This document shows positions 22,088-44,235 of a DNA stretch of 64,000 bases, piece after piece. The position numbers and the translations under genes are program-made. The notes beneath the pieces were generated by a model that had not been told where the DNA came from, did not search any database, and worked only from the letters and a program-made list of their open reading frames with translations. Position 1 is the first letter of the stretch. Each line of letters opens with the position of its first letter. The DNA comes from Cyanidioschyzon merolae (taxonomy: Eukaryota), in NCBI GenBank assembly GCA_000091205.1, contig AP006497.2. One strand, given 5' to 3'.

Positions 22088-23562
22088 GGTGTACGCCTTG
22101 ACAAGACATGTCCAGTAATGGGTAGCTTACCGCTCAGCGCTTTGATCCGCGCACAGGCCATCGGATGGACGTTCAGGCAGCGATCGCGTACGCACATAGG
22201 ATTCTAGAAATTTGGCGACAATGCTGGAACTGACAGACAAGTGCGCAGGGCGCCTCCTGCAGTTGACCCTTACATGGCGCTTCTTGAGTCGTCGGGGTAA
22301 TGCAGTCTTTTAGGATTCGCTGATTACCGCCTGTAGGCCTGTTGGCTCACAATGGACGTCAGAGCGGCGTTAGACAAAAGGTCAGATTCGGGGCCTCATC
22401 GGCATGGAGGCACCTTGACCGATTGTCGCAGATGCCCAGCTCGCCTGCGCCTTTTGATTGCTAGCTGGTCAGCGTTTGCGTGCGCAGCACTGGTTCGTGA
22501 GCAGACCAACGCGTGCGCGCACTTTACACGAAAACATCACCGAATTGCATTTCGTGGCGAAGCAGCGGTGGCCCGTGGAAGCAAGAACTGCGGATGCTCG
22601 AATCGCATCGTCTTTTAGAGAGCTGCAGAATTTGGTCTGAATGCCCACGTTTGGGAGACACCCGGGCGTCGGCACTGCGGATGCACAACTGCTATCGTCA
22701 GGTACGGGCTGCCTTGGTCATTCACGGAATGCTTGGCCTTGAGGTCGGCACAGGAGCTGTCCGGAGCTCCATAGTATCGGCGAAAACCATCAGCAACCAA
22801 GTATCGCATGCACCCGCTTATTCGGGAATCGCGAACGCCACGGAATTGCTCCATCTCAGAATACCCGTGAATTCCTCGGACAGACGCAGACGCCAGCCGG
22901 CATGATGCCGCCGAGCTCGTAACGTACCGCCCGCATCGCGTAAACACCGTCGATTCGAAGCGGCTGTGGGGTTCGCACGCGTGTGCAGCGCACCGTCAAA
23001 AAGCCTAGCAAGCATGAGCATGGTGATGAGATACCCAAGTTGGCCGCATCAGGTCTCTCGGTATCAAGCCCGGAGCTGCCTGCATCAGGTGCAACAGGGC
23101 CACGGCAGGCTCCGCAGCGCTCGAACGACTCGAATAGCCGTTAGAGTGCCCCGGTGGTCGCAAACAGCACCCGCCGCATCACCAGAGATTTCATTCAATT
23201 CGATCCGCTGAAATGTCAGTGCGCAACACTGTCTGACCGCTGCGGTACCTGGCAGAGAAACCCTGCTCCGGGTACGTCGATACCCACCCTGGAGCCGGGA
23301 ATTCCCATACAGTACCATCGATCCTGTCCTGAAAAACAGCAGCCTCGCCTGCAAGTCGCCATTGCATTCGCAGCTGATTTCCATTCTTCTGATGGTGTCT
23401 GGTCGATGCATCAAGCCTTGGACCCTAGGAATGCGCGACGAGGATCAACAGCGGTAAAAGTATCAGTGATGCTGTTCATCTGGTGTCAGAAATGGCGATG
23501 ACCCCGTTGCCACTGCCACTGGTGTCATCCAAAGCACCGGGCGAACGTTGCGCGCTACCAGC

Positions 23563-24648
23563 ATGGGCGCATTCGTTCGTGCGAACGCTTCAGCGCTGTG
23601 CAGCTGCGCTCCATGTCGAAGTATGTTCCTATCATCTATATATGGAACAAACGATAAACCATCTTTCTTGGAACTTGTTTCACAGGAGCAGCTGCTGTTG
23701 GGCTTGCGACCGGCACTGGACCGAGTGCTCCACGGCCTGTGCGAACGGTTCTCCGGTCAGCACTGGTTACGGGCCCTGCACCGTCGCACTGACGAGCTCT
23801 GGTTGCTGATTCTGCTCGTCGTTGAAGGCCGCTCGCTTTATTCGAACGGAGCCACTGTTGCAGAGAGTTTTTACGGACTCCGAAGACGCACGAATGAAAC
23901 GTCCACACTGGCCTCGCGACCAAAAGAGGAGCACGGGCCAGCGCCTGGTCTGCCAGCGGCAGCGGTATGGAAAAGCGTTTTGGAAAGCGCAATATTGCCG
24001 TATTTGAGAACAAAACTTGACGCGTTGTATCAGGAATTTTATATCCAGGCTAGCCTTGGCTTAGACGGCTTCTGGAGCTGTTTTTGGAAGCGACTATTCC
24101 TCCGCCTCTACCCTTTCTTGCGAACGTTGGACCACTGCTTCGTGTTTCTCTTTCGTCTTCTCTATCTGTTCGGTCGAACCGAGTACTACAGCTGGCCTTT
24201 ACGACTTGAACGAATCGTTGTCGTGCGAGCGCCCTATGCCGCTGGGCTAGTCCAGGGGCGACCTGCGGCTACACTGCTGCAGCGGTTCCTGGACCGCGCG
24301 TTCTCTGGCGGCAAGCTCGCTCTTATAGTAGGACTTTACACGCTTCGTTTCGTGGACTGGTTTCGATCCAATTTAGAGCGCGAGCGCCGTGAGCAGGTTC
24401 GGTCCTTGCCTTTACCACCACCGCCAGAGCCTCTGGGTCCGCCGCAGACCCACGCGTGGACACCAGGCGCTTGCGCTCTTTGTCACAGAGCGGACTGCTG
24501 CGAGCCCTCTGTTTGTCTGGTCAGCGGCTTTGTTTTCTGTGACGCTTGCTTACGCGAGCATATTAAGATTCATCGGCGTTGCCCGATAACAAAGTTTCCC
24601 GCATCCGAGTTGGACATACGTCGGCTCTACTTCTCAGACGCTCTATGA
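23563..24648 (+). CDS. PEX12: peroxisome assembly protein 12 (RING-type peroxin)
   Basis: C-terminus CALCHRADCCEPSVCLVSGFVFCDACLREHIKIHRRCPITKFPASELDIRRLYF aligns with the PEX12 degenerate RING (CPLCRK....ATSGYVFCYRCV..YV....CPITGYP....LIKLY). N-terminal DKPSFLELVSQEQLLLGLRPAL matches the PEX12 N-terminal box. The track ORF begins with TTG; in-frame ATGs are at 23563 and 23623 and either may be the start. Confidence 0.75.
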   Translation: MGAFVRANASALCSCAPCRSMFLSSIYGTNDKPSFLELVSQEQLLLGLRPALDRVLHGLCERFSGQHWLRALHRRTDELWLLILLVVEGRSLYSNGATVAESFYGLRRRTNETSTLASRPKEEHGPAPGLPAAAVWKSVLESAILPYLRTKLDALYQEFYIQASLGLDGFWSCFWKRLFLRLYPFLRTLDHCFVFLFRLLYLFGRTEYYSWPLRLERIVVVRAPYAAGLVQGRPAATLLQRFLDRAFSGGKLALIVGLYTLRFVDWFRSNLERERREQVRSLPLPPPPEPLGPPQTHAWTPGACALCHRADCCEPSVCLVSGFVFCDACLREHIKIHRRCPITKFPASELDIRRLYFSDAL

Positions 24649-29686: not shown

Positions 29687-30574
29687 ATGCAGCGCCCAGA
29701 GGGCCCAGGGACGCACACGATTCCTATGCCGAAACTAAACTCAGCAGAGGATGTTTTCACTTTTTGGTTTGGGGTAGAGCCGTCTCTTGAAAAACGCCGA
29801 AAGTGTCTTTCCTCCTTCAGCTACTTCGAGTCGCGCGTTGCAACGTGGTTTCTCGGGAAGAACAAGGAGTTCGAGCTAGTTCAGCTGGAAAGCGTTGACC
29901 TCGTGCATCGAGCCGGGCGAGGCGAGCTGCACGGCGGCGAGTGGGACCAACCTCTTGGGTTGCTTGCTCGGATCTTGCTGACGGATCAGTTTCCACGGTG
30001 CATCTGGCGCGGACGCGCGGAAGCCTTTCAGTACGACAACGTAGCGCGCGGCATATGTCGTGCAATCCTCGAGAAGGGCTGGGACAAGAGCGAGTTTTTT
30101 TTCGCAGAGCGTATATTCATATATCTACCTCTAGAGCATAGTGAATCCCTCGCAGATCAGCGCGAATGTGTTCGTCTGATGCGCACCGCAGCAGCGGGCT
30201 CGCCATGGCTCACACGCTGGAAACACGCGCGCAGCGTCAACGTGAAAATGGCTGAGGATCATCTCCGCGTAATCGAAAGGTTTGGACGATTCCCATATCG
30301 CAACGAGTCCTTGGGTCGGGCTTCATCGCCCGACGAAATAGCATGGTTGAGATCAGGGAACTTGCCGGTATTTGCAAAGAGCCAACTCGCATCATCGCAG
30401 CACAACGAGGCCGCGAGCACCGAGCCAGCTTCTGCGGGCGGGAATGCATCCACAGAACGTGCTTTTGGCAGAGTGTCCCGGTCACCGTGGACTGCGCTAT
30501 CGGCTGCGGTGCTGGCCATTGGAACTGCAGCTGCCATCAGCTATCGCATCTACCAAAGGCGCCATGAAGTCTGA
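29687..30574 (+). CDS. DUF924 family protein with C-terminal TM tail
   Basis: VFTFWFG...LARILLTDQFPRCIWRG...HLRVIERFGRFPYRNESLGRASSPDEIAWL matches the DUF924 pattern (W..D..RN...IIRFGRFPHRN..LGR.ST.EE..FL). C-terminal hydrophobic AVLAIGTAAAISYRIY. ATG at 29687; an alternative ATG lies at ~29726. Confidence 0.6.
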   Translation: MQRPEGPGTHTIPMPKLNSAEDVFTFWFGVEPSLEKRRKCLSSFSYFESRVATWFLGKNKEFELVQLESVDLVHRAGRGELHGGEWDQPLGLLARILLTDQFPRCIWRGRAEAFQYDNVARGICRAILEKGWDKSEFFFAERIFIYLPLEHSESLADQRECVRLMRTAAAGSPWLTRWKHARSVNVKMAEDHLRVIERFGRFPYRNESLGRASSPDEIAWLRSGNLPVFAKSQLASSQHNEAASTEPASAGGNASTERAFGRVSRSPWTALSAAVLAIGTAAAISYRIYQRRHEV

Positions 30575-31765: not shown

Positions 31766-31820
31766 AGCAAGCCCGTGCGTGGGCGCCACGCCCACCCGCA
31801 AGCTCCGTCGCGCTCCGGGG

Positions 31821-33281
31821 ATGTCTGGTGGTGGATGCCCCGGAACACTCCACCACAGGATGCAGTCCTGCATCGCTTCAAGAGGTCTCGCGCCGGCAGT
31901 GCCGGATCGCAGCCACACCCAAAAAACCCCATTTGTGACAACTGTCTATCGTGACATTCGTGCGCGTGTCAGAACTGCCGGTGATTTGGCGGCAACGCGC
32001 GCCCATTCGGACCTGTTCTTGGCGTTGTTTGCACGTCTTGCGAAAAACATGCCGGACTTTGCGTTCGTCACGACTGTTCATCACAAATTTAACACTCATT
32101 CGCATACCGTCTGTCGTAATAAAAGTAAATCCAGGTGCAGAAAAGGCCTAGCGAACGTCGAAAGCCTACTTGACGCTCACGGAGACGGCCTTGAGCAACG
32201 ACCGACGCCGCAGTCTGTATTGGCGCACAAGGCGCTCCGAGCCGGTCAAGTGGGACTCTCTTCAAGTTCTCGATCAGACTACCAACAAAAGCCGGTCGAC
32301 ACGGACACACCACCGTGTGTGGTCAAGGTTTTCGGCGTTGGCGGTGGCGGGTGTAACGCGATCTCTCGTATGCTGGAAGACGGAGAGTTCCGCGGGGTGC
32401 GGTTCGCTATCGCCAACACAGATCATCAGGCATTGATAGAGTTCAAGAAAAAATACATTTTATATACGCAGAACGCTGTTCTAGAAACAGTTGTTCCACT
32501 GGGTGAAAGCATCTGCAGAGGCCTCGGTGCTGGGGGCAACCCCGAGGTCGGCTGCGCAGCAGCCGAAGAGTCCCACGATCGCATCGCACAGGCGATTGGT
32601 GTCGGGACAGACCTCCTGTTTATTACCGCGGGCATGGGCGGCGGCACCGGCACCGGAGCCGCTCCCGTTGTTGCGCGCATTGCCAAGAGTCTCGGAGCGC
32701 TCACCGTTGGGGTGGTCACCAAGCCGTTCTCATTCGAGGGCCGCCATCGAATGCAGCAGGCCTTGGATGGCGTTGCTGCGCTTCGTGAAAACGTGGACAC
32801 ACTCATCGTTGTCAGTAATGACCGCCTCATGCATGTGGTTCCCAAGAATATGCCGCTCAAGAGAGCTTTTCGGGTAGCAGACGACGTTTTGAAAAATGGT
32901 GTGCGCGGCATTTCCGAATTAATCACGCGACCTGGTCTCATTAATGTGGATTTCGCTGACGTTCGCTCGGTCATGGCCGAAAAAGGCTACGCGCTTCTCG
33001 GATTGGGAACAGGAAGCGGCGAGCGCCGAGCTAAGGAGGCAGCACTCGCCGCGGTGTCCTCGCCACTGCTTGATTTCCCTCTGAACAGCGCAAAAGGCGC
33101 AGTGTTCAATATTTGCGGTGGACCCGATATGACGCTCAGCGAAGTGAACCAGTGTGCGGAGGTCATATTCCAGCATCTGGATCCTGACGCGAGCATCATT
33201 TTTGGGGCAACGGTGGATCCGACGCTTGGGCCGCGCGCTGATATCTCCGTTACTGTCGTTGCGACCGGGTTTGCGTCCTAA
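31821..33281 (+). CDS. ftsZ: cell-division GTPase FtsZ (organelle-division type) with long N-terminal extension
   Basis: VKVFGVGGGGCNAISRM...GLGAGGNPEVG...LLFITAGMGGGTGTGAAPVVARIAKSLGALTVGVVTKPFSFEGRHRMQQALDGVAALRENVDTLIVVSNDRL is a canonical FtsZ core with the tubulin signature GGGTGTG. Ends ...ISVTVVATGFAS with no conserved C-terminal tail peptide. ~170 aa precede the core. The track ORF starts with GTG inside repeat A; first ATG is at 31821 and the start is uncertain. Confidence 0.85.
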   Translation: MSGGGCPGTLHHRMQSCIASRGLAPAVPDRSHTQKTPFVTTVYRDIRARVRTAGDLAATRAHSDLFLALFARLAKNMPDFAFVTTVHHKFNTHSHTVCRNKSKSRCRKGLANVESLLDAHGDGLEQRPTPQSVLAHKALRAGQVGLSSSSRSDYQQKPVDTDTPPCVVKVFGVGGGGCNAISRMLEDGEFRGVRFAIANTDHQALIEFKKKYILYTQNAVLETVVPLGESICRGLGAGGNPEVGCAAAEESHDRIAQAIGVGTDLLFITAGMGGGTGTGAAPVVARIAKSLGALTVGVVTKPFSFEGRHRMQQALDGVAALRENVDTLIVVSNDRLMHVVPKNMPLKRAFRVADDVLKNGVRGISELITRPGLINVDFADVRSVMAEKGYALLGLGTGSGERRAKEAALAAVSSPLLDFPLNSAKGAVFNICGGPDMTLSEVNQCAEVIFQHLDPDASIIFGATVDPTLGPRADISVTVVATGFAS

Positions 33282-33608: not shown

Positions 33609-35747
33609 TCACAGGGTCAGCGTCGTCCGCTCCGTATCCGTCTCGATCAAACCGTCGTCCTCAAATGCCGCCTGACCTAGCAGATTGGTCTCGGTCAAGT
33701 GATCCAGCTCGGGAATGTCGGCCATGCCGCGTGAAACCCGGATTCGGTGGAGCATGTCCACAATCTTCGGATGCAGATGTTTCAACGCAAGCTCACGTCG
33801 TGGATCGTCGCGCTCCCAGCTGCGAAAAAATGGACCAGGAACCCGCAGTATTCCATTCTCAATATCATCCAAACAGTAGTCAAGGGTGAATACCCGATAG
33901 AAGTACTCTCCAAAGAAGCGATTATCCCGAAGGCCGCTTCGCACTGGCGCCCCGTGGACCATTCTAACGTGGATGAACATCACATTGTAGAGAACGACCC
34001 AAAATCTGATTTTCGCGTGATCATCTGTTAGCGTTCGCGGATCCGCTGACTGCAACTGCGACGCCGCGAACAAATACTCCTCGCTCGGCAGCTTTCGATG
34101 CTGCATGCATTCGCGGCGAATACGTTGCAGCAGCGATTCAACCAGCTCAATGGCACTTGCCAGAATCGGGTTCCCGGTAAAGTCGGAAGCAAGGTTCAAG
34201 ACCCGTCGCGCAGGCTGTCGCCATTTCTCGTGTGCAGCAAAGAGCTCTTTCGCTCCGGCGTCCTGGAGTGCCTGGGGCTCGCGTGTTGCCCGGCGATGGG
34301 CATGGGTGCCGCGCGGCCACCACGAGTTTATCGCTCGGGTCACCCGGCGAAAGCCCTCGGCCGCGTGTCCTGCACTAGAGGCGGCATCGAAAGACAAAAA
34401 ATCTCGCTTTTCGAATGCATCGGGCCCCAGAAGCTTACTCGCATCTACACGGTGCAAATGACGAAAGTCGATGCCTTTGAAGAAAGGATGCAACTTGAGT
34501 GCACGCATCGTAATGCGTTGGGCTGGATCCTTGTTGAGAAGCTTCTCCACAAGGTCTCGACCCGAACTTGTCGGAAGACATGACTTGGGGAACGCAACGT
34601 CGTCTTTCAAGATACTTTGAAAGAGTAAGTAATCTGTTTCGCCACGGAACGGGAGCTCGCCGCCACACAGCATCTGGTATAGGACGACACCGAGCGCCCA
34701 GAGATCGCTCTCGAACCCGCCTCCTGGTCGTTCTCTTCGGAGCTGCTCTGGTGCTAGATAAGCGAAAGTACCAACAAAGGAATCGTAACGATGTTTGTCC
34801 TGCGGCCGCGGAGACCGCCCCGCCAGTTCGTCATCCGGTGTTTTGCCCAAAATGGCGGCAACGCCGAAGTCTGCAAGCTTACAGTGGCCCTTGTTCCCAA
34901 TGAGAATATTGTGTGGCTTCAAATCGCGATGGACGATGCCGTTTTTGTGAATCAAATCGACCGCGGACACAATCTCTGCAAAGTAGAAGCGCGCTGCATC
35001 AAGGCTCAAGGCGCCGACATGATTCCCACCGCTCGGAGCCGCCCCGTTCGGCTCACGCTTCTGGAATCTGTCTCGATGCGACGGATGCGGCGTTTCGCTT
35101 GAAGCGCGCCTACGAGCGAGCAGGCGCGCCAGGTCACCGTGTGGGCAAAGCTCTATAACCATATAGAGAAAGTTCTCATCCTCCAGAATAGCTTTCAGCT
35201 GCACGATGTTTGGATGGCCCAGTCCCACTTGTAAACAAATCTGCTCTGTTCGCAGGGGGAGCACCTGCTCATTCTGCTCTGCCAAAGCTTTCGAGATAAC
35301 TTTCACCGCATACTCCCTCCCGGTCGGAAGGTAAGTAGCTCGCAGCACCCGCGAGCATGCACCCTCTCCTATCAGTTCCGTCGCTTTGAAATCAGCGCGC
35401 GATGCACCCTGTAGCTCAAGAGGCGGAACGCCAGGCAGCAGGGCAATGAAATGACGGCGAGCATTGCGCTCGCCGTCGGTATGCCAGGAGTGGCTGTCCG
35501 CTACTGGGGGGCTTGTTTTGCTCGAGACTTCCGGGACCGGCGGCTGATGCGGTAGCATTTGGTCTGTCTCTTTCTCAGATTCGTCCCGAGAATCTTCGAA
35601 GCACACAACAGGCTCCGGTTTAGCGGATGTGTCCACAGGGAGACCGGCCGCGCAGCCACCCTTGATGCCTCGCTCGAGTTCGGCAAACCAACTTTCATCC
35701 ACTGCCCAGGAGGGCGTCCGGCGCTCCCGGCGCCACGTACTCATCAT
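33609..35747 (-). CDS. Ser/Thr protein kinase fused to C-terminal DUF547 domain
   Basis: True ATG at 35747 (MMSTW...). Kinase subdomains: GEGACSRVL..YAVKVISK, HPNIVQLKA, HRDLKPHNILI, KLADFG, GTFAYLAPE, DLWALGVVLYQML. C-terminal region IRFWVVLYNVMFIHVRMVHGAPVRSG...LDYCLDD matches the DUF547 core (FWINLYNALVMH...G.P). Confidence 0.75.
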   Translation of the reverse strand: MMSTWRRERRTPSWAVDESWFAELERGIKGGCAAGLPVDTSAKPEPVVCFEDSRDESEKETDQMLPHQPPVPEVSSKTSPPVADSHSWHTDGERNARRHFIALLPGVPPLELQGASRADFKATELIGEGACSRVLRATYLPTGREYAVKVISKALAEQNEQVLPLRTEQICLQVGLGHPNIVQLKAILEDENFLYMVIELCPHGDLARLLARRRASSETPHPSHRDRFQKREPNGAAPSGGNHVGALSLDAARFYFAEIVSAVDLIHKNGIVHRDLKPHNILIGNKGHCKLADFGVAAILGKTPDDELAGRSPRPQDKHRYDSFVGTFAYLAPEQLRRERPGGGFESDLWALGVVLYQMLCGGELPFRGETDYLLFQSILKDDVAFPKSCLPTSSGRDLVEKLLNKDPAQRITMRALKLHPFFKGIDFRHLHRVDASKLLGPDAFEKRDFLSFDAASSAGHAAEGFRRVTRAINSWWPRGTHAHRRATREPQALQDAGAKELFAAHEKWRQPARRVLNLASDFTGNPILASAIELVESLLQRIRRECMQHRKLPSEEYLFAASQLQSADPRTLTDDHAKIRFWVVLYNVMFIHVRMVHGAPVRSGLRDNRFFGEYFYRVFTLDYCLDDIENGILRVPGPFFRSWERDDPRRELALKHLHPKIVDMLHRIRVSRGMADIPELDHLTETNLLGQAAFEDDGLIETDTERTTLTL

Positions 35748-36952: not shown

Positions 36953-39122
36953 TGACACCGATTGATGGAGCACCGTGGTCGTTAGCCAGGTGCATGGGAA
37001 ATTCGGTCTCGATGGATCCAGGTATTACTGGATTCCCTCTGCATTCTCGGTATTTGCACCGTTCCACAGCCTTGCTCCACGCGTGGTCCGAATGTCCTCT
37101 CTGCTGCGCTGATTTTTTCATCGCAAGTCATCTGCGTATCGGAGCCATGCCACAGTGCGTCCGAAACGATGCCTGCGGACGCTCCTGGGGCACGACATCC
37201 TTCCGCATGTCGATCGAGCCGCTCAAGTCCAGGTTGAGCGTGTGTTTGCGCGCACGGTTGCTCCTGGGGCACTCCACAGGGAGCAGCTCGCATGCTAGTG
37301 CCTCGCATTCGGACGTTCAGGCATGTTTCCGCACTCCGTACCGTGCATTTGTCTCTATTTGACGCCCCTGTGCTCTGCTTGTTTCGGCGTACGGTTGTAT
37401 GCATGATGAGCGTAGATGCCGTTCAGGAGGCATCGACGAGCCTCGAAGAGAATCGATTCGTGAACGTGTGTGACGCTCTCGTCGACGGAGCAGGAGCGCA
37501 GCCTTTGCGCGTGAGCGCACGTCCAGCGTCGTGCGCTGCTACCAGACGACCCGAGATGTTAGTCGTGATCGTGGCGAACATGTTGAACGGGGTGGCGAGT
37601 GCGCGCTTCTTCCCGCCGACCAGCGGAAGCTGCTTGGGAGCCCCAGCTCAACCGCGTGGTCCCGTGTCCTCCTGCCGAAAATCCTTCTCATGAGCCGTGT
37701 GCATACTCGTGTATGTACTGGTGCACAGCACCCCTTGTATCTGTACCCGCTTTTCTGGGCCTCTGCGGCGGCGGTACATTGCGCAAAAGATGCACTCTAC
37801 AGGGACGCACAGACGGTTGTTGCGGAGAGTTTGGTACTCTTTGGCACTGGCGCTGTCGGTGTTCCTGTCGCTGAGCAGCATGGCAGTGCATCGAAGGATG
37901 CTGGAAAGCCCGTGTGTGTGTGTGTGTGTGTGCGTCGCTGGTCCGCCGATTAGGCCGCATTGCATCCGCGGTGCCGAACATCACGCTTCATGTCGCATGC
38001 GGGTTTGGTCGAGCAGGTCTAGGCCAGTGTGGACATCCGGCACACTTGCACCCGGAATGCCGTCGAACTGCTTGCTCGACGAGGCGCTTCCGTGCAAGGA
38101 CAGCGAAACGAGTATTTCTCGAGTGAAGCGTTACACGCTCATTCATGACGCTCTGTGTCGTTGCGCGTGTCGGATACGAACGACTCGCCTACTGATGCGT
38201 GATCCTCGAAGCGGTGTAGAAGCATTAGGAAGGCGGATTTGGCCCGATGGAACCAGGGAGCATCGGCTAGCACGTGGCGCACCTGAACGCCTATGCCAGC
38301 TGCGTACGCCTTGACCACGTATCAGAGATGGAAAGCGACGCTGCCCCTGAACAGGACAGACGCGTACGGGAAGCAGAAGCCAGGAAGCGTGCATCGACGA
38401 AGAGTGCGCTGTTGAGCGATCCAGTCTGGTTGGTGATTCACAGGAGACCGCATCCTTGGATGGTCGTTCGCGTTGATGTCGACGGCATGCTCGTTTGACT
38501 GTTCTGAGCAGACCGAGGCTTGCCCCTGTTTGCGTATCCATTGTGGAAGTCGACCAAGTCTTCTTGCGTGGAGCCTCGTCGAGCGAGACGATCTCTGGCC
38601 CCTGCCACGCTCCGCCCTCGCGTTCCAGCATGACGCCGATGGTGTGGTATGCATCGTGCGTCTGTCTCCCCGAGAAGCGTCCTTTCTTTCTTTCGTGCTT
38701 CGTCCATGGTGTCTCTTCGTCACTGTTCGTATCAACGGCACGCGGAATTCGGAAGCTCCGGCTTCTCTGAAAGTACTTCCTGCACAACGCGTAGAATGGG
38801 ATGGATTGACGAGTACTGGGTTGCATAGGCAGCGTTTTCATCAATTTTGTTTACGGGTTATGACATTCAGAGCAGGGACTTGCACGGTATTTGGTCCAGT
38901 GGCTATCGCAGATTGACTGCATTGGACAAGCACCGCCGTTCTTTTTCGCGAGCTTGCACTCGCAGCATCACGGCATTCCGTAACCTTTCTCCAGAGCGCA
39001 GGATACAATCCTCTGTATTGAATCGCTGTGCGAGAAACAAAAACAATACGGGTGTGCTGGCGCAGCTTCTCCAGAATTCACTGGTCTGAGCGTAACGCCC
39101 GAAAGGTGTTGGAAGCAGCGAG
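36953..39122 (+). repeat. dispersed repeat family B, copy 1 (~2.2 kb) containing a (GT)n microsatellite
   Basis: About 97-98% identical to 50771..52940 (same orientation, offset 13,818 bp). (GT)10 at 37912-37932. Internal ORFs (e.g. 38143..38844 minus, 37697..38314 plus) have no RT, integrase or transposase motifs. No TIR found. Confidence 0.85.
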
Positions 39123-39474
39123 TCGCGTCTCGTCTCGACACTATTCCTTCCCAGCACCTGGATCGCATCGGAAACCGATCACGCAACGCGTTCGCCATCG
39201 TACCAGCAACGAGACGCCCTAGAGGCACGCGCACCATCAACGCATCACGATGATCAGCGTACGTACATCGAAAGCGCCTCTGCCCCGCCATTGTCCCTGT
39301 CTCCCAGCAGGTGTGGCGCTGCCGTCTGGCCGCATCGCTGGCGCGCAAAGCGCTGCATTCGCCAGCGCTGGGACACGCTGCCGATCCCGCCATCTTGGCA
39401 TTTCGAATCCGTGAGCGCTGGGGGCCGCGCGTTCCCGGGTGCTCTCGTTCCGGTTCCGTAGTCGCTTACGGGAT

Positions 39475-40881
39475 ATGCCTGTGGGCAGCGGGGTAGAACC
39501 CCAGGCGGCTGCGTTTGAAAGTCTGCAGCCGCCCTGGCTGGGCTCGAAACCTCCACATACACAATCTACGCGAGATGACTTAGAAGCTGTTATGACAGAA
39601 CAGAAACTGGAGTTGGAGAGCGCCCAGAGACAACGTTTAGCTCGTTTGGAGGAGCGAGCGCGAAACCAGGATAAGGTTATCGCTCGGTTACAGAGAGAGC
39701 TCTATGAAGCTCGAAGGCTTATTGAGGAAAGAAAAACCAGTCCAACACTGGTGGACGCAATCCGGGTACCCGCAGGTGTTCAAACGACAACGTCCAGCGC
39801 CGGCAAACAACACGACGTCGCATCGCTCGCGCTGCAACTTGAGGCGGCCAAAGAGGCACTCGCAGCTGAGCAGAGAAATAGGCAGGAAACTGAGAGGCTC
39901 AGTGAACGATTGGCGAAATCTTTTGACTCGTATCTGCAGGAGATGGAGCGACGTCAGCGCGCTCAGGAGCAGGAATACCGTCGCCAGGAGATGCACCTTC
40001 GAGGAGAGCTTCGGCGTTGCAACATGGCAAAGGCGCACCTGGAGGAGCAGCTCGAGCTGGAAAAAGAGTCACTCCGTGCGGCCCAGCAGGAACTCCGTGG
40101 GCTGCGCTCCAGGGTGGAAGGCACCATAGAGGACATGAAGGCTCGCCAGCTGCAACTGGAAGAGGGAAAGCGGGAGCTCGAGCGAAATCTGAATAAACTC
40201 TCCGATCAGCTTGAGAAAGAGCGCACTCTCTTTCAAAGCGAGCGCGAACGTTTTCAACAGGCGTCCCGTGAGGCGTACACGATGCTGAGCGAATCCGCCG
40301 CCCGGAGTGATGAACTCGAAAAACGACTCGCTGAGACTCAAGCGCAAATGCAACAGCTTCGAATCGAATTCGGCAGTCAGTTGCAGGCTGAGGTAGCACG
40401 CTCTGCTGCACTTGAGCGCGACCTTGACAGATATCGCCAGCGAAATCGACAGTTCGAAGACCGTATTGACGAGCTACTTACCGTGAATCAGAAACAGGCG
40501 GAGGAACGCGCCTCCCTTCGGGCGGAAATACGACGACTGACCGACGAACTGGTACGTGTTCAAGCACGCAGCACATTCGCTGAACGACGCCTTCAAGATC
40601 TGCTTCTGGATGCATCAAGCCCGCAAACGGAGGCAAACCTGCTCCCGGGAGATACAGGTGACGTCCCGACGCCATTGTCGGGCAGCATCATGAAAAAAAC
40701 GTCTCCCTCAAGCGTCCACAAGCTTCAGAACATCGAATCGTCCCTTCGTGGCATTTCCGAAGAAAATGCAGCGTTCCGAGCCAAGGTTCGCGCCTATCTG
40801 GACAAGCGAACTCCCGAGCCGCGCAGTCGTTCACTCGCTGATGATACGCATACAAGATCTCAGAAGGGAACGCCTCCATAG
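39475..40881 (+). CDS. coiled-coil protein (E/R/Q/L-rich), function unknown
   Basis: Track ORF begins with GTG at 39439; first ATG is at 39475. About 350 aa of heptad-like charged sequence (…LEEQLELEKESLRAAQQELRGLRSRVEG…). Confidence 0.45.
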   Translation: MPVGSGVEPQAAAFESLQPPWLGSKPPHTQSTRDDLEAVMTEQKLELESAQRQRLARLEERARNQDKVIARLQRELYEARRLIEERKTSPTLVDAIRVPAGVQTTTSSAGKQHDVASLALQLEAAKEALAAEQRNRQETERLSERLAKSFDSYLQEMERRQRAQEQEYRRQEMHLRGELRRCNMAKAHLEEQLELEKESLRAAQQELRGLRSRVEGTIEDMKARQLQLEEGKRELERNLNKLSDQLEKERTLFQSERERFQQASREAYTMLSESAARSDELEKRLAETQAQMQQLRIEFGSQLQAEVARSAALERDLDRYRQRNRQFEDRIDELLTVNQKQAEERASLRAEIRRLTDELVRVQARSTFAERRLQDLLLDASSPQTEANLLPGDTGDVPTPLSGSIMKKTSPSSVHKLQNIESSLRGISEENAAFRAKVRAYLDKRTPEPRSRSLADDTHTRSQKGTPP

Positions 40882-41481: not shown

Positions 41482-44235
41482 TCACGTCTCTGGAGATGTG
41501 TCCGGCAGGAGCGCAGATGCCCGCAGGCGCCACACAGCTCTGTTGCCATCACCGGATTCGCTCAGATAGGCGACAAGCTTGAGCACTGCTCGGAACTCGG
41601 CAGCGTTGATGCCGCGTACGCGCAAGGAGGACTTAAAGGCGCCCGCAAGCTCCGCAGTCGTCGCCCCGGGCCCGCGTCGCTGTAAATACGACGTAATCTC
41701 GTGCACAAGAGACTGCAGCTTTCGAACCTGCTCCTCATCGTCATCGACCGCTTCGCGTTCGTGCAGACACTGAAGCAGTGCCTGTGACGCAAGTTTCGAT
41801 GAAGGTGCTCGGTTCGCTGTCGCTGTCGAGCAGAGCCACGGCGCCTGTGTCGTTGGTTCAGGTAGCGGGGTTGTCGGCGTCTGGTGGTTCAGTGAACGAC
41901 GCAGTGCCGCCAGCGCTCGTTGGGCGACTCGATCGGCCTCGGCCTGGAGCACCTGTCGATCGAATGCGGTCCGGGGATGCTTTCCTGATACCTCCAGCGT
42001 GGAGTCGTGGTTGAAGACTGCCGCCACTTGATCAAGCGCACGGGCATCGTTGCCGTCCAGTAACTGTCGCATGATCCGCATCTCCGCTGTTAGCTGTTCA
42101 TTCTGCTTGGCATCTAGCTTACAATGATTATCGGCATCAGCATCATCACCAGCTGCTGCTGCGACGCTCACCGGAGCGAGCGACTCCCGTGCAGTCGCCT
42201 GAACCTGAACAAAATCCTCGTCTGTAGCGTCTTCATGCAGCGTCAGAAGCTCGTGTATATCTTTTCGTTTGAAAAATCGGCGCTTGCGAGGATCATGCAA
42301 AACCTTTTCAGAGAGAAACGTTTTGAAGATCTGGCGGTGGTATATCTTCTCCTCGATGGTGCCGCGCGTCAACAGGCGATAGACGACAACTGGGCGCTCC
42401 TGGCCGATGCGCCAGGCCCGTTCGCGGGCCTGGGTATCGGACGCCGGGTTCCAGTCGGGATCGTAGATAATCACGCGATCTGCTCCGATTAGGTTGAGAC
42501 CGAGCCCACCCACGCGAGTGGTCAACAGGAAGGCGAAAATCGAGCTATCGTGATTGAAGCGGTCTACCAACTCGGCTCGAAGTGCAACATTCGTCTCACC
42601 GTCCATGCGCAAGTACGTGAACTGCCCCTTGTTCAGCGTTTTCTCGAGCAGAGTGAGCATGCTACGCGTCTGCGAAAAGATCAGCGCTCGATGATTCGTC
42701 TCGCGGAGCTGGTGCAGCAGGCGATCCAAAGCGAGGAGCTTACCCGAAGTACTCTGGCGCAGGAGCTTCCTCTCTGAGCCGGATACATGGAGATCAGCAG
42801 CCGCGAGCCGCGGATGGTTACAAATCTTGCGCAGGGTCGTGATGATTGGCAGTAAGTTCAGCTGTCCATCTGCGGCTCGTTCGACGTCAATGGCATTAAG
42901 GTAGTTCTGGTAGATCCGTCGCTGCTCGGGTGTCAGTCTGCAGAGGAGAACATGTTCCTGTTTTTGTGGTAACTGGAGTGCAACGTCCCTTTTCAAGCGT
43001 CGCAAAAGATAGGGCGCAATCAGATCTCGCAGTGTCGATGCACAGCGATACGCGATGTGAACCTGGGCGGGCGTTGCGTTCGCGAAACCGCCTAGAGATA
43101 TGGGTATGCTGAACTCCTCCTCAAAGGACTGCAATGTTCCGAGCCTGCCAGGGTAAATAAAATCAAAGAGACTCCAGAGCTCACAAAGACGGTTTTGCAA
43201 GGGTGCACCGGTCATCAGAATGCGATGTACCGTGTTGAGTTGTTTGCATACTCGTGTGACCTCTGCTTCGGGATTCCGAATGCGATGGCCCTCATCCAGA
43301 ATTACATAGTCCCAACGTCGGCTGGTAAACCAACTCGCATGAATGCGAAGGTGTTCGTAATTCGTAATGAATATAACTTGCGATGGACACTGATTCGGCT
43401 GGAGCGCGGACTCCCCGATACCCAGCACGGCGTGCAGGACGCGCACTTGCAGTCGAGGCCACCAGGTTTCCAATTCTCGTCGCCACTGGTCCAGAACAGT
43501 GACAGGTGCCACCACTAGAATCGGGCCTTTCAAGAGTCCCGAGTAGTCGAGCGCTGCGAGAAAAGCGATGATCTGAACAGTCTTTCCTAACCCCATTTCA
43601 TCGCCCAGAATCCCACCGGTACCCTGTACATGAAGCGACCAGAGCCAAACAAGCCCCTCCTTTTGGTACGGAAACAAACGCTCATACAGAGACCGCGGAA
43701 GCCAAAGTCCAGGTGCAAGTTCCATAGCTGCCTCAGTTCCTACGGCATGACCTGCTTCGAGCGTACGCGCAAGCTGCTGCGAAGCTAGTGCGTCCGGCGA
43801 GCCCGTTGGTGTAAACGAAACTTCTCCGTTGCGATAACCGTCGGTGCTCGCAAGATCTCCGAGTTCATGAACTTGTTCAGCTTCAAGCTCAACCAGCTCG
43901 CTTCTAAGTTGTTCCAAGCGGTTGTGCAGGTAGTGGAGTCGTCGCCGCGCCCGGCCGCTAGCCGCAACGCTGCCCGCGTCACAGGCGTCGTCGCTGCGCT
44001 GAGCCCGCTGCGACGACGTGCCCGCTCCGTGCTCGCTTCCGAGCACCTGCTGGAGTAGCTCATTCGTTTCTTGCTCTAGCACAAGGATTTGCTGTCGTGT
44101 TTGCTCGATGAGATCGCGATGTGCTTTCTGCACAATGTCAACAACGAGTTTTCCCTCGTCCACCACCTGCACTGCAGGATCAGTGACCAGTGCATCGCTC
44201 CTCGCGACGTACGACGTTGAATTCGGGGCAGACAT
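41482..44235 (-). CDS. SNF2-family DNA-dependent ATPase, ERCC6/CSB-like
   Basis: True ATG at 44235. Helicase motifs LFPYQKEGLVWLWSLHVQGTGGILGDEMGLGKTVQIIAFLAAL (motif I), DYVILDEGHRIRNPEAE (DEGH box), LMTGAPLQNRLCELWSLFDFIYPGRLG, IFSQTRSMLTLLE..., LLTTRVGGLGLNLIGADRVIIYDPDWNPASDTQARERAWRIGQ (motifs V-VI). Confidence 0.8.
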   Translation of the reverse strand: MSAPNSTSYVARSDALVTDPAVQVVDEGKLVVDIVQKAHRDLIEQTRQQILVLEQETNELLQQVLGSEHGAGTSSQRAQRSDDACDAGSVAASGRARRRLHYLHNRLEQLRSELVELEAEQVHELGDLASTDGYRNGEVSFTPTGSPDALASQQLARTLEAGHAVGTEAAMELAPGLWLPRSLYERLFPYQKEGLVWLWSLHVQGTGGILGDEMGLGKTVQIIAFLAALDYSGLLKGPILVVAPVTVLDQWRRELETWWPRLQVRVLHAVLGIGESALQPNQCPSQVIFITNYEHLRIHASWFTSRRWDYVILDEGHRIRNPEAEVTRVCKQLNTVHRILMTGAPLQNRLCELWSLFDFIYPGRLGTLQSFEEEFSIPISLGGFANATPAQVHIAYRCASTLRDLIAPYLLRRLKRDVALQLPQKQEHVLLCRLTPEQRRIYQNYLNAIDVERAADGQLNLLPIITTLRKICNHPRLAAADLHVSGSERKLLRQSTSGKLLALDRLLHQLRETNHRALIFSQTRSMLTLLEKTLNKGQFTYLRMDGETNVALRAELVDRFNHDSSIFAFLLTTRVGGLGLNLIGADRVIIYDPDWNPASDTQARERAWRIGQERPVVVYRLLTRGTIEEKIYHRQIFKTFLSEKVLHDPRKRRFFKRKDIHELLTLHEDATDEDFVQVQATARESLAPVSVAAAAGDDADADNHCKLDAKQNEQLTAEMRIMRQLLDGNDARALDQVAAVFNHDSTLEVSGKHPRTAFDRQVLQAEADRVAQRALAALRRSLNHQTPTTPLPEPTTQAPWLCSTATANRAPSSKLASQALLQCLHEREAVDDDEEQVRKLQSLVHEITSYLQRRGPGATTAELAGAFKSSLRVRGINAAEFRAVLKLVAYLSESGDGNRAVWRLRASALLPDTSPET

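What the first reader, a model, noticed from the sequence alone, without database searches (positions are those of the whole stretch)
33609..35747. Protein kinase fused to DUF547
One uninterrupted 712-codon ORF from a true ATG has a complete Ser/Thr kinase catalytic domain in the N-terminal half (AVKVISK ... HRDLKPHNILI ... DFG ... APE). In the C-terminal half, the DUF547 core (IRFWVVLYNVMFIHVRMVHGAPVRSG...) follows. In land plants DUF547 is usually paired with a leucine-zipper (MIP1-type) N-terminus and its biochemical role is unknown. A direct fusion to a kinase suggests DUF547 acts as a regulatory or substrate-recognition module. This architecture could help assign a function to DUF547.
Basis: partly seen in the sequence, partly recalled or inferred. 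Interest (0 to 1): 0.55.

Follow-up and report, generated by a model that had tools for sequence, protein, structure and literature searches.

The report
Red-algal PDK1 kinase carrying DUF547
This is the already-annotated "probable PDK1" gene of the red alga Cyanidioschyzon merolae, a master-regulator-type protein kinase in which the usual lipid-binding PH domain has been replaced, in the whole class of hot-spring red algae, by a stripped-down copy of the uncharacterised DUF547 domain; this gives a modest, testable clue to what DUF547 does.

Summary
Window 33609-35747 (minus strand) is one uninterrupted 712-codon ORF with an intact Ser/Thr kinase domain (Pfam Pkinase, 192.6 bits, aa 121-423) and a C-terminal DUF547 match above Pfam's cut-off (41.9 vs 27 bits, aa 574-669).

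The product is 100% identical to C. merolae 10D XP_005537503.1, annotated "probable 3-phosphoinositide-dependent protein kinase". The fusion is also present in Cyanidiococcus, Cyanidium, Galdieria and two unassigned environmental lineages, so it is not a gene-model artefact.

The kinase groups with PH-domain-bearing PDK1s (74% bootstrap; nearest relatives all carry PF14593). It has no PH domain. In every orthologue it has also lost the PDK1 phosphate pocket (R131/T148/Q150 replaced by Q/I-L/E).

The DUF547 copy is divergent. It lacks several near-invariant polar residues and the whole C-terminal WY..DFG segment. No solved structure resembles it.

Among relatives, DUF547 is a promiscuous partner of membrane-proximal signalling domains (DEP, RasGAP, RGS, RapGAP, glutaredoxin, two other kinase families).

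Best reading: an active PDK1-derived kinase in which a non-catalytic DUF547 module replaced the PH domain as the regulatory or targeting element. That role is inferred, not shown. This is a new variant of a known kind, of moderate interest.

The parts
33609..35747 (-). Complete CDS (712 codons plus stop). Identical to C. merolae 10D XP_005537503.1 / BAM81467.1 / UniProt M1VEV3, 'probable 3-phosphoinositide-dependent protein kinase'; presumably locus CMO090C (inferred).
   Evidence: ORF; 712/712 identity; names; the neighbouring FtsZ2 is CMO089C/XP_005537502, the preceding accession.
35418..35747 (-). N-terminal region, aa 1-110. Poorly conserved and predicted disordered, apart from an invariant basic motif W5-R7-R9-R10 at the extreme N-terminus. 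It holds 7 of the 11 amino-acid polymorphisms seen in environmental variants.
   Evidence: Alignment; pLDDT below 50 (weak model); polymorphisms.
34479..35387 (-). Ser/Thr protein kinase domain (aa 121-423), PDK1 clade of AGC kinases. Catalytic residues K149, E168, D275, K277, N280 and D293 are intact.
   Evidence: Pfam. The best PDB matches are human PDK1 (E=6e-48) and then 4c0t_A ('likely protein kinase', E=4e-43; from my own recall a Candida Pkh, not confirmed here). Residue table; tree.
35181..35243 (-). N-lobe segment holding the positions equivalent to the hPDK1 phosphate pocket: R131 is Q169, T148 is I187, Q150 is E189. All three are replaced in every cyanidiophyte orthologue.
   Evidence: six of six PH-bearing PDK1s have R/K-T-Q; five of five cyanidiophyte proteins have Q-I/L-E.
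35010..35114 (-). Low-complexity insert in the kinase domain (aa ~212-246). It varies in length among orthologues and is absent in Galdieria and in canonical PDK1s.
   Evidence: Alignments.
34779..34850 (-). Activation segment with a ~12-residue insert (GKTPDDELAGRSPRPQDKHRY) followed by the T-loop Ser323, in a D-S-F-V-G-T context equivalent to hPDK1 S241.
34260..34427 (-). Linker (aa 441-496). It contains a conserved predicted helix, FRRVTRAINSWWPR (aa 464-477). No PH or DEP domain and no canonical AGC hydrophobic motif is present; the only FxxF is FLSF-D at aa 450, which is not conserved in Cyanidium or P0005.
33723..34259 (-). DUF547 structural module (aa 497-675). It is mostly helical with one beta-hairpin. 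It extends about 75 residues upstream of the Pfam match (shared 'vLN' motif at L517-N518) and ends at the conserved RVSRGM. No amino-acid polymorphism occurs here among environmental variants.
   Evidence: Conservation; AF2 model with pLDDT mostly above 85 for aa ~514-684; polymorphisms.
33741..34028 (-). Pfam PF04784 (DUF547) match, aa 574-669, profile positions 5-98 of 125. Retained: F582, W583, Y587, N588, H593, F611-F612, Y617, LDDIE.GILR (626-635), D648-P-R650. Lost relative to near-invariant family residues: N585 is V, the Asn after ILRG is absent, H663 is V, C668 is R, C678 is I, and the C-terminal WY..DFG segment is missing.
33609..33722 (-). Acidic, non-conserved C-terminal tail (aa 676-712, net charge -9) plus stop. 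It is absent in the Cyanidium, P0005 and Galdieria orthologues, which end just after the SRGM/SRGF motif.

Best explanation
The gene encodes an active PDK1-derived AGC kinase. PDK1 is the kinase type that phosphorylates the activation loops of other AGC kinases. In the common ancestor of Cyanidiophyceae the ancestral C-terminal PH domain was replaced by a DUF547 domain of eukaryotic origin.

That DUF547 copy has since lost several of the family's near-invariant polar residues and its C-terminal third, but it remains under purifying selection. It most likely acts as a non-catalytic regulatory or targeting module in the place of the PH domain. The likely roles are tethering the kinase to a membrane-proximal site or partner protein, autoinhibiting the kinase domain, or both.

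In the same lineage the phosphate-binding site beside the PIF pocket (hPDK1 R131/T148/Q150) was replaced by Q/I-L/E. Substrate docking therefore probably no longer reads phosphorylation of the hydrophobic motif.

Shown: the architecture, its conservation, PDK1-clade placement, intact catalytic residues, the lost pocket residues, the degenerate DUF547, and the absence of any solved structural relative. Inferred: that this is the organism's functional PDK1, that DUF547 targets or regulates, and the altered docking.
For: - Architecture and identity.
- Conservation of the fusion across Cyanidioschyzon, Cyanidiococcus, Cyanidium, Galdieria and two unassigned environmental lineages (P0003, P0005).
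- PDK1 affinity: the best PDB hits are human PDK1 at 166.9 bits, against 141 bits or less for Akt-like and PKC kinases. The nearest database relatives of the kinase profile are four PDK1s carrying PF14593 (189-222 bits), with PKA/PKC at 173 bits or less. An NJ tree places the monophyletic cyanidiophyte group (100%) in a clade with all six PH-bearing PDK1s at 74% bootstrap.
- The catalytic residues and T-loop Ser are intact and no own hydrophobic motif is present.
- There is no PH, DEP or other domain at E<=1.
- The phosphate pocket is lost in five of five orthologues and kept in six of six canonical PDK1s.
- DUF547 divergence and truncation are shared by all orthologues.
- Purifying selection: there are many invariant columns in the module, and none of the 11 polymorphic sites in environmental variants falls in aa 497-675.
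- Signalling and membrane context of DUF547: DEP in 48 of 73 hits, RasGAP in 4, RGS in 4, RapGAP in 1, PH in 1, kinases in 3. DUF547 is listed among the domains of Entamoeba PTEN homologues. Arabidopsis UCG (MIP1 zipper plus DUF547) is a peripheral polar plasma-membrane protein with no TM segment or lipidation motif.
- Eukaryotic rather than bacterial origin: the closest non-orthologous DUF547s are RasGAP-DUF547 proteins of Mantamonas and Pygsuia (120 and 91 bits), against 77 bits or less for all later hits, including the stand-alone ~270-305 aa proteins on bacterial-looking contigs.
Against: - No localisation, lipid-binding or kinase assay exists for this protein or for any DUF547 domain. The membrane-targeting idea rests only on guilt by association.
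- Frequent glutaredoxin fusions and conserved His/Cys/Asn/Asp residues in canonical DUF547 suggest the parent family may be an enzyme or redox-sensitive module, not a targeting domain.
- Bootstrap support for the PDK1 clade is only moderate (74%), from a simple distance tree with limited sampling.
- I could not search the complete C. merolae proteome, so a second, canonical PH-bearing PDK1 cannot be excluded.
- The charge of the module (pI 9.6, net +6) is not unusual for the family.
- The full-length AF2 model failed (pLDDT 35), so there is no structural evidence for an intramolecular kinase-DUF547 contact.
Confidence: 0.55

Rival explanations
1. The protein is not the functional PDK1 of the organism. 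It is a lineage-specific AGC kinase that descends from PDK1 by duplication and has a new role, with DUF547 recruiting it to a specific pathway. A canonical PDK1, or a PDK1-independent mode of AGC activation, exists elsewhere.
For: Two functional PDK1 hallmarks are missing: the PH domain and the R131/T148/Q150 phosphate pocket. PIF-pocket I118 is Ala in all orthologues. The cyanidiophyte branch is long and PDK1-clade support is only 74%.
Against: No other cyanidiophyte protein appeared among the nearest relatives of the kinase profile. This is weak evidence, because the word-indexed tool did not list the query's own family either. From my own knowledge, yeast Pkh1/2 are accepted PDK1 orthologues without a canonical PH domain. 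The GenBank annotators assigned this gene as the probable PDK1.
Confidence: 0.2
2. DUF547 is an enzymatic or ligand- or redox-sensing domain, and the fusion couples that chemistry to kinase output. In that case the DUF547 half would be a sensor or catalyst rather than a passive targeting module.
For: Canonical DUF547 has many near-invariant polar residues (N, YN, H, E-H-G, R-x-N, DPR, DPRIH, C..SCPP, WY..DF) typical of an active or ligand-binding site. It is fused to glutaredoxin in 25 of 73 proteins and to GH15 glycosidases in 5 of 73.
Against: The cyanidiophyte copy has lost N585, the Asn after ILRG, H663, both Cys and the entire WY..DFG segment in all orthologues. If the parent domain is catalytic, this copy looks like a pseudo-enzyme. 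Both Cys are also absent from the eukaryotic RasGAP-type copies (sequences printed).
Confidence: 0.15
3. The fusion is an artefact: two adjacent genes were merged by an assembly or annotation error, or the DUF547 similarity is a chance match.
For: The DUF547 score is low (41.9 bits) and covers only part of the Pfam profile.
Against: The score is above Pfam's gathering cut-off with E=1.2e-10. The reciprocal profile search retrieves DUF547 proteins. The same uninterrupted ORF occurs on independent contigs and in 13 environmental variants. It also occurs in orthologues from four genera with conserved junction sequences. The AF2 model of the half built with a DUF547 alignment is confident.
Confidence: 0.02

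Closest known systems
[quoted passage not shown]
   Same: The kinase domain falls in the same clade. The T-loop Ser lies in an S-F-V-G-T context. There is no own hydrophobic motif. K115 and L155 of the PIF pocket are kept. A regulatory domain sits C-terminal to the kinase after a linker of about 70 residues, and the HPFF..i.f..Lh...a.kl sequence at the end of the kinase domain is conserved.
   Different: No PH domain (PF14593/PF00169), with DUF547 in its place. The phosphate pocket R131/T148/Q150 is Q/I-L/E and I118 is A. There are extra inserts in the kinase domain and the activation segment.
Yeast Pkh1/Pkh2 (fungal PDK1 orthologues)
   Same: These are PDK1-family kinases that work without a canonical phosphoinositide-binding PH domain and use other C-terminal regions for localisation (from my own knowledge). 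PDB chain 4c0t_A, which I recall as a Candida Pkh although the tool labels it only 'likely protein kinase', is the second-best solved relative.
   Different: They have no DUF547. Whether they retain the phosphate pocket was not tested here.
Plant MIP1-leucine-zipper + DUF547 proteins (e.g. Arabidopsis AT2G23700 UCHIGAWA)
   Same: They contain a DUF547 domain in a non-enzymatic-looking signalling or scaffold protein. UCG is peripherally associated with a polar plasma-membrane domain.
   Different: They have an N-terminal leucine zipper instead of a kinase. The window protein has no Lzipper-MIP1 hit at E<=1. Whether the plant copies are full-length canonical DUF547 was not examined here.
Class IV glutaredoxins and other DEP-DUF547 proteins (GRX-DEP-DUF547, RGS/RasGAP/RapGAP-DUF547)
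   Same: DUF547 acts as a C-terminal accessory module of signalling proteins. The closest non-orthologous DUF547 sequences are RasGAP-DUF547 proteins of Mantamonas and Pygsuia; Capsaspora has the same architecture.
   Different: The window protein has no DEP or GRX domain. Those relatives keep the H663-equivalent His and the C-terminal F.WY..DFG segment that the window copy lacks.
Other kinase-DUF547 fusions (P0173: CAMK/AMPK-like kinase + DEP + DUF547; P0200: GRX-DEP-DUF547-TKL kinase)
   Same: They show the same domain co-occurrence of kinase and DUF547.
   Different: They involve different kinase families, different domain order and an extra DEP domain, so they are independent fusion events.

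Membership tests
PDK1 subfamily of AGC kinases | Kinase domain groups with PDK1s rather than other AGC kinases | tested here: met
   Best PDB hits are human PDK1 (166.9 bits, against 141 or less for Akt-like and PKC). The top four database relatives carry PF14593. NJ clade with six PH-bearing PDK1s at 74% bootstrap. Support is moderate, not strong.
PDK1 subfamily of AGC kinases | Intact catalytic residues and an activation-loop Ser/Thr equivalent to hPDK1 S241 | tested here: met
   K149, E168, D275, K277, N280, D293, S323 and T327 are conserved in all orthologues.
PDK1 subfamily of AGC kinases | No C-terminal hydrophobic motif of its own (F-x-x-F/Y-S/T-F/Y) | tested here: met
   A regex scan found none. 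The only FxxF is FLSF-D at aa 450, which is not conserved in Cyanidium or P0005.
PDK1 subfamily of AGC kinases | Hydrophobic PIF pocket (hPDK1 K115, I118, I119, V124, V127, L155) | tested here: inconclusive
   K153, V162, L165 and L194 are compatible with the pocket. I118 is Ala in all five orthologues and I119 is E/H/V/R. Positions 119 and 124 also vary in canonical PDK1s.
PDK1 subfamily of AGC kinases | Phosphate-binding site next to the PIF pocket (hPDK1 R131, T148, Q150) | tested here: not met
   Q169, I187 and E189 in the window protein. All five cyanidiophyte proteins have Q-I/L-E, whereas all six canonical PDK1s have R/K-T-Q.
PDK1 subfamily of AGC kinases | C-terminal PDK1-type PH domain (PF14593) | tested here: not met
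   No PH-family hit at E<=1 in the Pfam scan; DUF547 occupies that position.
PDK1 subfamily of AGC kinases | Phosphorylates the activation loop of other AGC kinases | not testable with these tools
   This needs a kinase assay or genetic complementation.
DUF547 (Pfam PF04784) | Scores above Pfam's gathering threshold, and a reciprocal search retrieves family members | tested here: met
   41.9 bits against a cut-off of 27, E=1.2e-10. The C-terminal profile finds 647 proteins, and all 73 scanned carry PF04784.
DUF547 (Pfam PF04784) | Full-length domain including the DPRIHFAL.C..SCPP and F.WY..DFG segments | tested here: not met
   Only profile positions 5-98 of 125 match. H663 is V, C668 is R and C678 is I. 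The WY..DFG segment is absent and the orthologues terminate right after SRGM.
DUF547 (Pfam PF04784) | Near-invariant polar signature residues (FWIN-YN, H, E-x-G-x-L-R-x-N, DPR) | tested here: inconclusive
   Kept: F582, W583, Y587, N588, H593, E630, G632, L634, R635, D648, P649, R650. Lost: N585 (99% conserved in the family), the Asn after ILRG (95%), and H631, which is Asn.
Plant MIP1-type DUF547 proteins | N-terminal Lzipper-MIP1 domain | tested here: not met
   No such Pfam hit at E<=1.
DEP-DUF547 / class IV glutaredoxin architecture | DEP (and GRX) domain N-terminal to DUF547 | tested here: not met
   No DEP or glutaredoxin hit at E<=1. The 56-residue linker is too short for a DEP domain.

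The most novel reading that the evidence does not exclude
DUF547 is a general membrane-proximal (lipid-, headgroup- or partner-binding) localisation and regulation module of eukaryotic signalling proteins that can functionally substitute for a PH domain. In cyanidiophyte red algae it took over PDK1 regulation from the PH domain. From background knowledge, red algae lack class I PI3K and PIP3. At the same time PDK1 stopped reading hydrophobic-motif phosphorylation, which would rewire the PDK1-AGC (and TOR-AGC) activation logic in this lineage.
Probability: 0.25. Interest if true: 0.65.

Novelty: new variant of a known kind. Interest (0 to 1): 0.4.

Why it matters
PDK1 is the conserved upstream activator of AGC kinases, and its PH domain and PIF/phosphate pocket are its two textbook regulatory devices. 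A whole class of eukaryotes that kept the kinase but replaced one device and lost the other is a natural experiment in how this signalling node can be rewired.

For DUF547, which is widespread in plants, protists and bacteria and has no known function or solved structure, the swap adds one more case to a consistent pattern of association with membrane-proximal signalling modules (DEP, RasGAP, RGS, RapGAP, PTEN, PH). C. merolae allows gene targeting by homologous recombination, as used, so the hypothesis can be tested there.

The value is limited for three reasons. The gene and its domains are already in public databases. The DUF547 copy is degenerate. Nothing here demonstrates function.

Tried and rejected
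1. Full-length AF2 model from a 5-sequence alignment: unusable (mean pLDDT 35), so there is no information on kinase-DUF547 contacts.
3. NCBIfam scan: only generic kinase-domain similarities far below the cut-offs.
4. Genomic context of the closest stand-alone DUF547 proteins, on bacterial-looking contigs: no informative conserved neighbourhood.
5. Charge and pI of the module as a proxy for membrane binding: not distinctive (pI 9.6, family median 8.6).
6. An FxxF-D motif at aa 450 as a possible in-cis PIF-like motif: rejected because it is not conserved in Cyanidium, P0005 or Galdieria.
7. Literature: no paper in the library discusses this gene or CMO090C. Of the 28 papers returned by the word-start search for 'DUF547', I read passages from four. 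One was a false match to DUF5476. The other three mention the domain only in passing, and none reports a biochemical function.
8. HGT origin of the DUF547 half: rejected as less likely, because the nearest relatives are eukaryotic RasGAP-DUF547 proteins.
9. Tool caveat: profile queries to the search for homologous proteins did not list the query's own family. Absence of a second cyanidiophyte PDK1 from those lists is therefore not good evidence that none exists.
10. The first Biopython bootstrap run timed out and was redone with numpy.
Full report
**1. Observation**

Window 33609..35747 holds a single 712-codon ORF on the minus strand that starts with ATG. An in-frame TAG lies 9 nt upstream of that ATG.

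Pfam finds Pkinase (E=1.1e-56, 192.6 bits, aa 121-423) and DUF547/PF04784 (E=1.2e-10, 41.9 bits against a gathering cut-off of 27, aa 574-669, profile positions 5-98 of 125). No other domain appears at E<=1: no PH, DEP, glutaredoxin or MIP1 zipper. NCBIfam adds nothing.

**2. Identity and gene integrity**

The product is 712/712 identical to C. merolae 10D XP_005537503.1 / BAM81467.1 / UniProt M1VEV3, annotated "probable 3-phosphoinositide-dependent protein kinase".

The convergent neighbour at 31779-33281 (+) is an FtsZ. FtsZ2 is CMO089C/XP_005537502, the preceding accession, so this gene is presumably CMO090C. That assignment is inferred, and no paper in the library mentions the tag.

The same ORF is intact on three environmental contigs, with 5 nt differences of which 3 are synonymous. 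Thirteen environmental 712-aa variants differ at 2-7 residues. The 11 polymorphic sites fall as follows: 7 in aa 35-81, 2 in kinase loops (164, 314), 1 in the linker (493) and 1 in the tail (705). None lies in aa 497-675.

Orthologues with the same architecture exist in:
- Cyanidiococcus yangmingshanensis (73% identity)
- an unnamed JGI lineage (75%)
- Cyanidium caldarium KAK4538054.1 (about 60%)
- a Logan-derived lineage (54%)
- Galdieria yellowstonensis KAK4527059.1 (974 aa; kinase 425-698, DUF547 855-945)

The fusion is therefore real and as old as the class Cyanidiophyceae. An assembly or annotation artefact is excluded.

**3. The kinase half**

The best solved relatives are human PDK1 kinase domains (E=6e-48, 166.9 bits) and then chain 4c0t_A (150.9 bits). 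The tool labels that chain only "likely protein kinase"; I recall it as a Candida Pkh, but this was not confirmed here. Akt-like and PKC kinases follow at 141 bits or less.

A profile of the cyanidiophyte kinase domains finds its nearest relatives in four PDK1s that carry the PDK1-type PH domain PF14593. They are Choanoeca (222 bits), Rigifila (208), a conifer cluster (196) and Endostelium (189). PKA and PKC score 173 or less.

I built a distance tree (Kimura distances, 274 columns, 200 bootstraps). The five cyanidiophyte sequences are monophyletic at 100%. They sit in a clade with all six PH-bearing PDK1s at 74%, separate from PKA, PKC, Akt-like, ROCK, Greatwall and PINOID.

All catalytic residues and the T-loop Ser323 (equivalent to hPDK1 S241) are conserved. 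No AGC hydrophobic motif is present.

At the positions of the hPDK1 phosphate pocket, every canonical PDK1 examined has R/K131-T148-Q150 and every cyanidiophyte protein has Q-I/L-E. PIF-pocket I118 is Ala in all five. K76 varies even among canonical PDK1s, so it is not informative.

The kinase is therefore PDK1 by descent but lacks two of PDK1's functional hallmarks.

**4. The DUF547 half**

A profile of the C-terminal halves retrieves 647 proteins at E<=1e-3. Aligning 166 of them defines the canonical signature:

vLN ... VDY ... eLQ.VD ... AFWINxYNaLvIH ... FF ... Y.IGG..fSLDDIEHGILRgN ... DPR ... DPRIHFALvCGa.SCPP ... IF.WY..DFG

The window copy keeps the first two-thirds of that signature. 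It has lost the following:
- N585 is Val (99% conserved in the family).
- The Asn after ILRG is absent (95%).
- H663 is Val (94%).
- H631 is Asn.
- D659 is His and R661 is Lys.
- Both Cys are replaced.
- The whole C-terminal segment is missing.

The Cyanidium, P0005 and Galdieria proteins end just after the conserved RVSRG(M/F). These changes are shared by all orthologues, and the replacement residues are themselves invariant. This is therefore an old, selectively maintained, divergent DUF547 and not a decaying remnant.

With a 94-sequence alignment, AF2 gives a confident model: mean pLDDT 79, pTM 0.72, and pLDDT mostly above 85 for aa ~514-684. The fold is mostly helical with one beta-hairpin.

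**5. Context of DUF547**

Of 73 multi-domain relatives, the co-occurring domains are:
- DEP: 48
- glutaredoxin: 25
- GH15 glycosidase: 5
- RasGAP: 4
- RGS: 4
- protein kinase: 3
- RapGAP: 1
- PH: 1

These counts are, with individual architectures.

The RasGAP-DUF547 proteins come from Mantamonas, Pygsuia and Capsaspora. The first two are the closest non-orthologous relatives of the window's DUF547 (120 and 91 bits). All later hits score 77 bits or less, including the stand-alone proteins on bacterial-looking contigs. This argues for domain shuffling within eukaryotes rather than HGT.

Two other kinase fusions are independent events. P0173 is CAMK/AMPK-like with DEP and DUF547. P0200 is a GRX-DEP-DUF547-TKL kinase.

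The literature adds three points:
- A figure legend lists DUF547 among the domains of Entamoeba PTEN homologues.
- Arabidopsis AT2G23700 (UCG; MIP1 zipper plus DUF547) is a peripheral protein of a polar plasma-membrane domain, with no TM segment or lipidation motif.
- The plant class IV glutaredoxins (GRX-DEP-DUF547) are uncharacterised.

The passages I read report no biochemical function for DUF547. The genomic context of the closest stand-alone DUF547 proteins was uninformative.

**6. Interpretation**

PDK1 with a PH_3 domain occurs in opisthokonts, CRuMs, Amoebozoa and plants, so it is presumably the ancestral architecture. In Cyanidiophyceae the same position, C-terminal to the kinase after a linker of about 70 residues, is occupied by DUF547.

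In canonical PDK1 the PH domain localises the enzyme and autoinhibits it (review text). The simplest reading is that DUF547 took over a regulatory or targeting role. The copy has lost many of the family's conserved polar residues, so it is probably non-catalytic.

The concurrent loss of the phosphate pocket suggests that docking no longer depends on hydrophobic-motif phosphorylation.

These mechanistic steps are inferences. The main rivals are a neofunctionalised paralogue and a sensor or enzymatic DUF547. I could not exclude either, because the full proteome could not be searched and no functional data exist.

**7. Novelty and score**

The gene, its PDK1 annotation and its two Pfam domains are already public. 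What appears not to have been described in the searched literature is:
- the class-wide PH-to-DUF547 replacement
- the coupled loss of the phosphate pocket
- the degenerate, truncated nature of this DUF547
- the breadth of DUF547 fusions to membrane-proximal signalling domains

This is a new variant of a known kind, with interest 0.4. It is a useful lead for both DUF547 and PDK1 evolution, and it is testable in a tractable organism. It is not a surprise on the scale of a new system, and it demonstrates no function.

Noticed in passing
window 31779-33281 (+): Convergent neighbour encoding an FtsZ (Tubulin/FtsZ GTPase plus FtsZ_C domains). By adjacency of accessions it is probably plastid-division FtsZ2, CMO089C/XP_005537502. 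Only about 330 bp separate the two stop codons. The listed ORF starts at GTG, and environmental contigs call a 501-aa product.
   Followed up: partly
window 35718-35735 (-), aa 5-10 of the kinase: An invariant basic motif W-R-x-E/Q-R-R sits at the extreme N-terminus of an otherwise unconserved, disordered N-terminal region in the five full-length orthologues aligned (Cyanidioschyzon, Cyanidiococcus, P0003, Cyanidium, P0005). It could be a targeting or regulatory motif.
   Followed up: no
window 34338-34379 (-), aa 464-477: A conserved amphipathic-looking helix, FRRVTRAINSWWPR, lies in the linker between the kinase and DUF547, with an invariant WWPR in the Cyanidiaceae-type orthologues. It is modelled as a helix at low confidence. 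It could dock on the kinase N-lobe or on DUF547.
   Followed up: no
window 23548-24648 (+), 29687-30574 (+), 41482-44235 (-): Unrelated neighbouring genes: a Pex2/Pex12-type peroxin, a DUF924 protein and an SNF2-family helicase. No functional link to the kinase is apparent.
   Followed up: partly
window 39439-40881 (+); 37697-38314 (+) overlapping 38143-38844 (-): A 480-aa ORF and two overlapping ORFs of about 200 aa have no Pfam family at E<=1e-5. Whether they are real genes was not examined.
   Followed up: no
P0157, P0158, P0160, P0166 (Mantamonas, Pygsuia, a Logan contig, Capsaspora CAOG_08383): These RasGAP proteins carry two tandem DUF547 stretches and lack the family's two conserved Cys. 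They represent a widespread protist architecture that seems undescribed in the searched literature.
   Followed up: partly
L004 and L005 (contigs carrying stand-alone DUF547 proteins P0143 and P0146): In both contigs the DUF547 gene lies directly downstream of a CarboxypepD_reg-repeat protein and near a PrkA-type AAA kinase. The gene order is shared, but its meaning is unknown.
   Followed up: no
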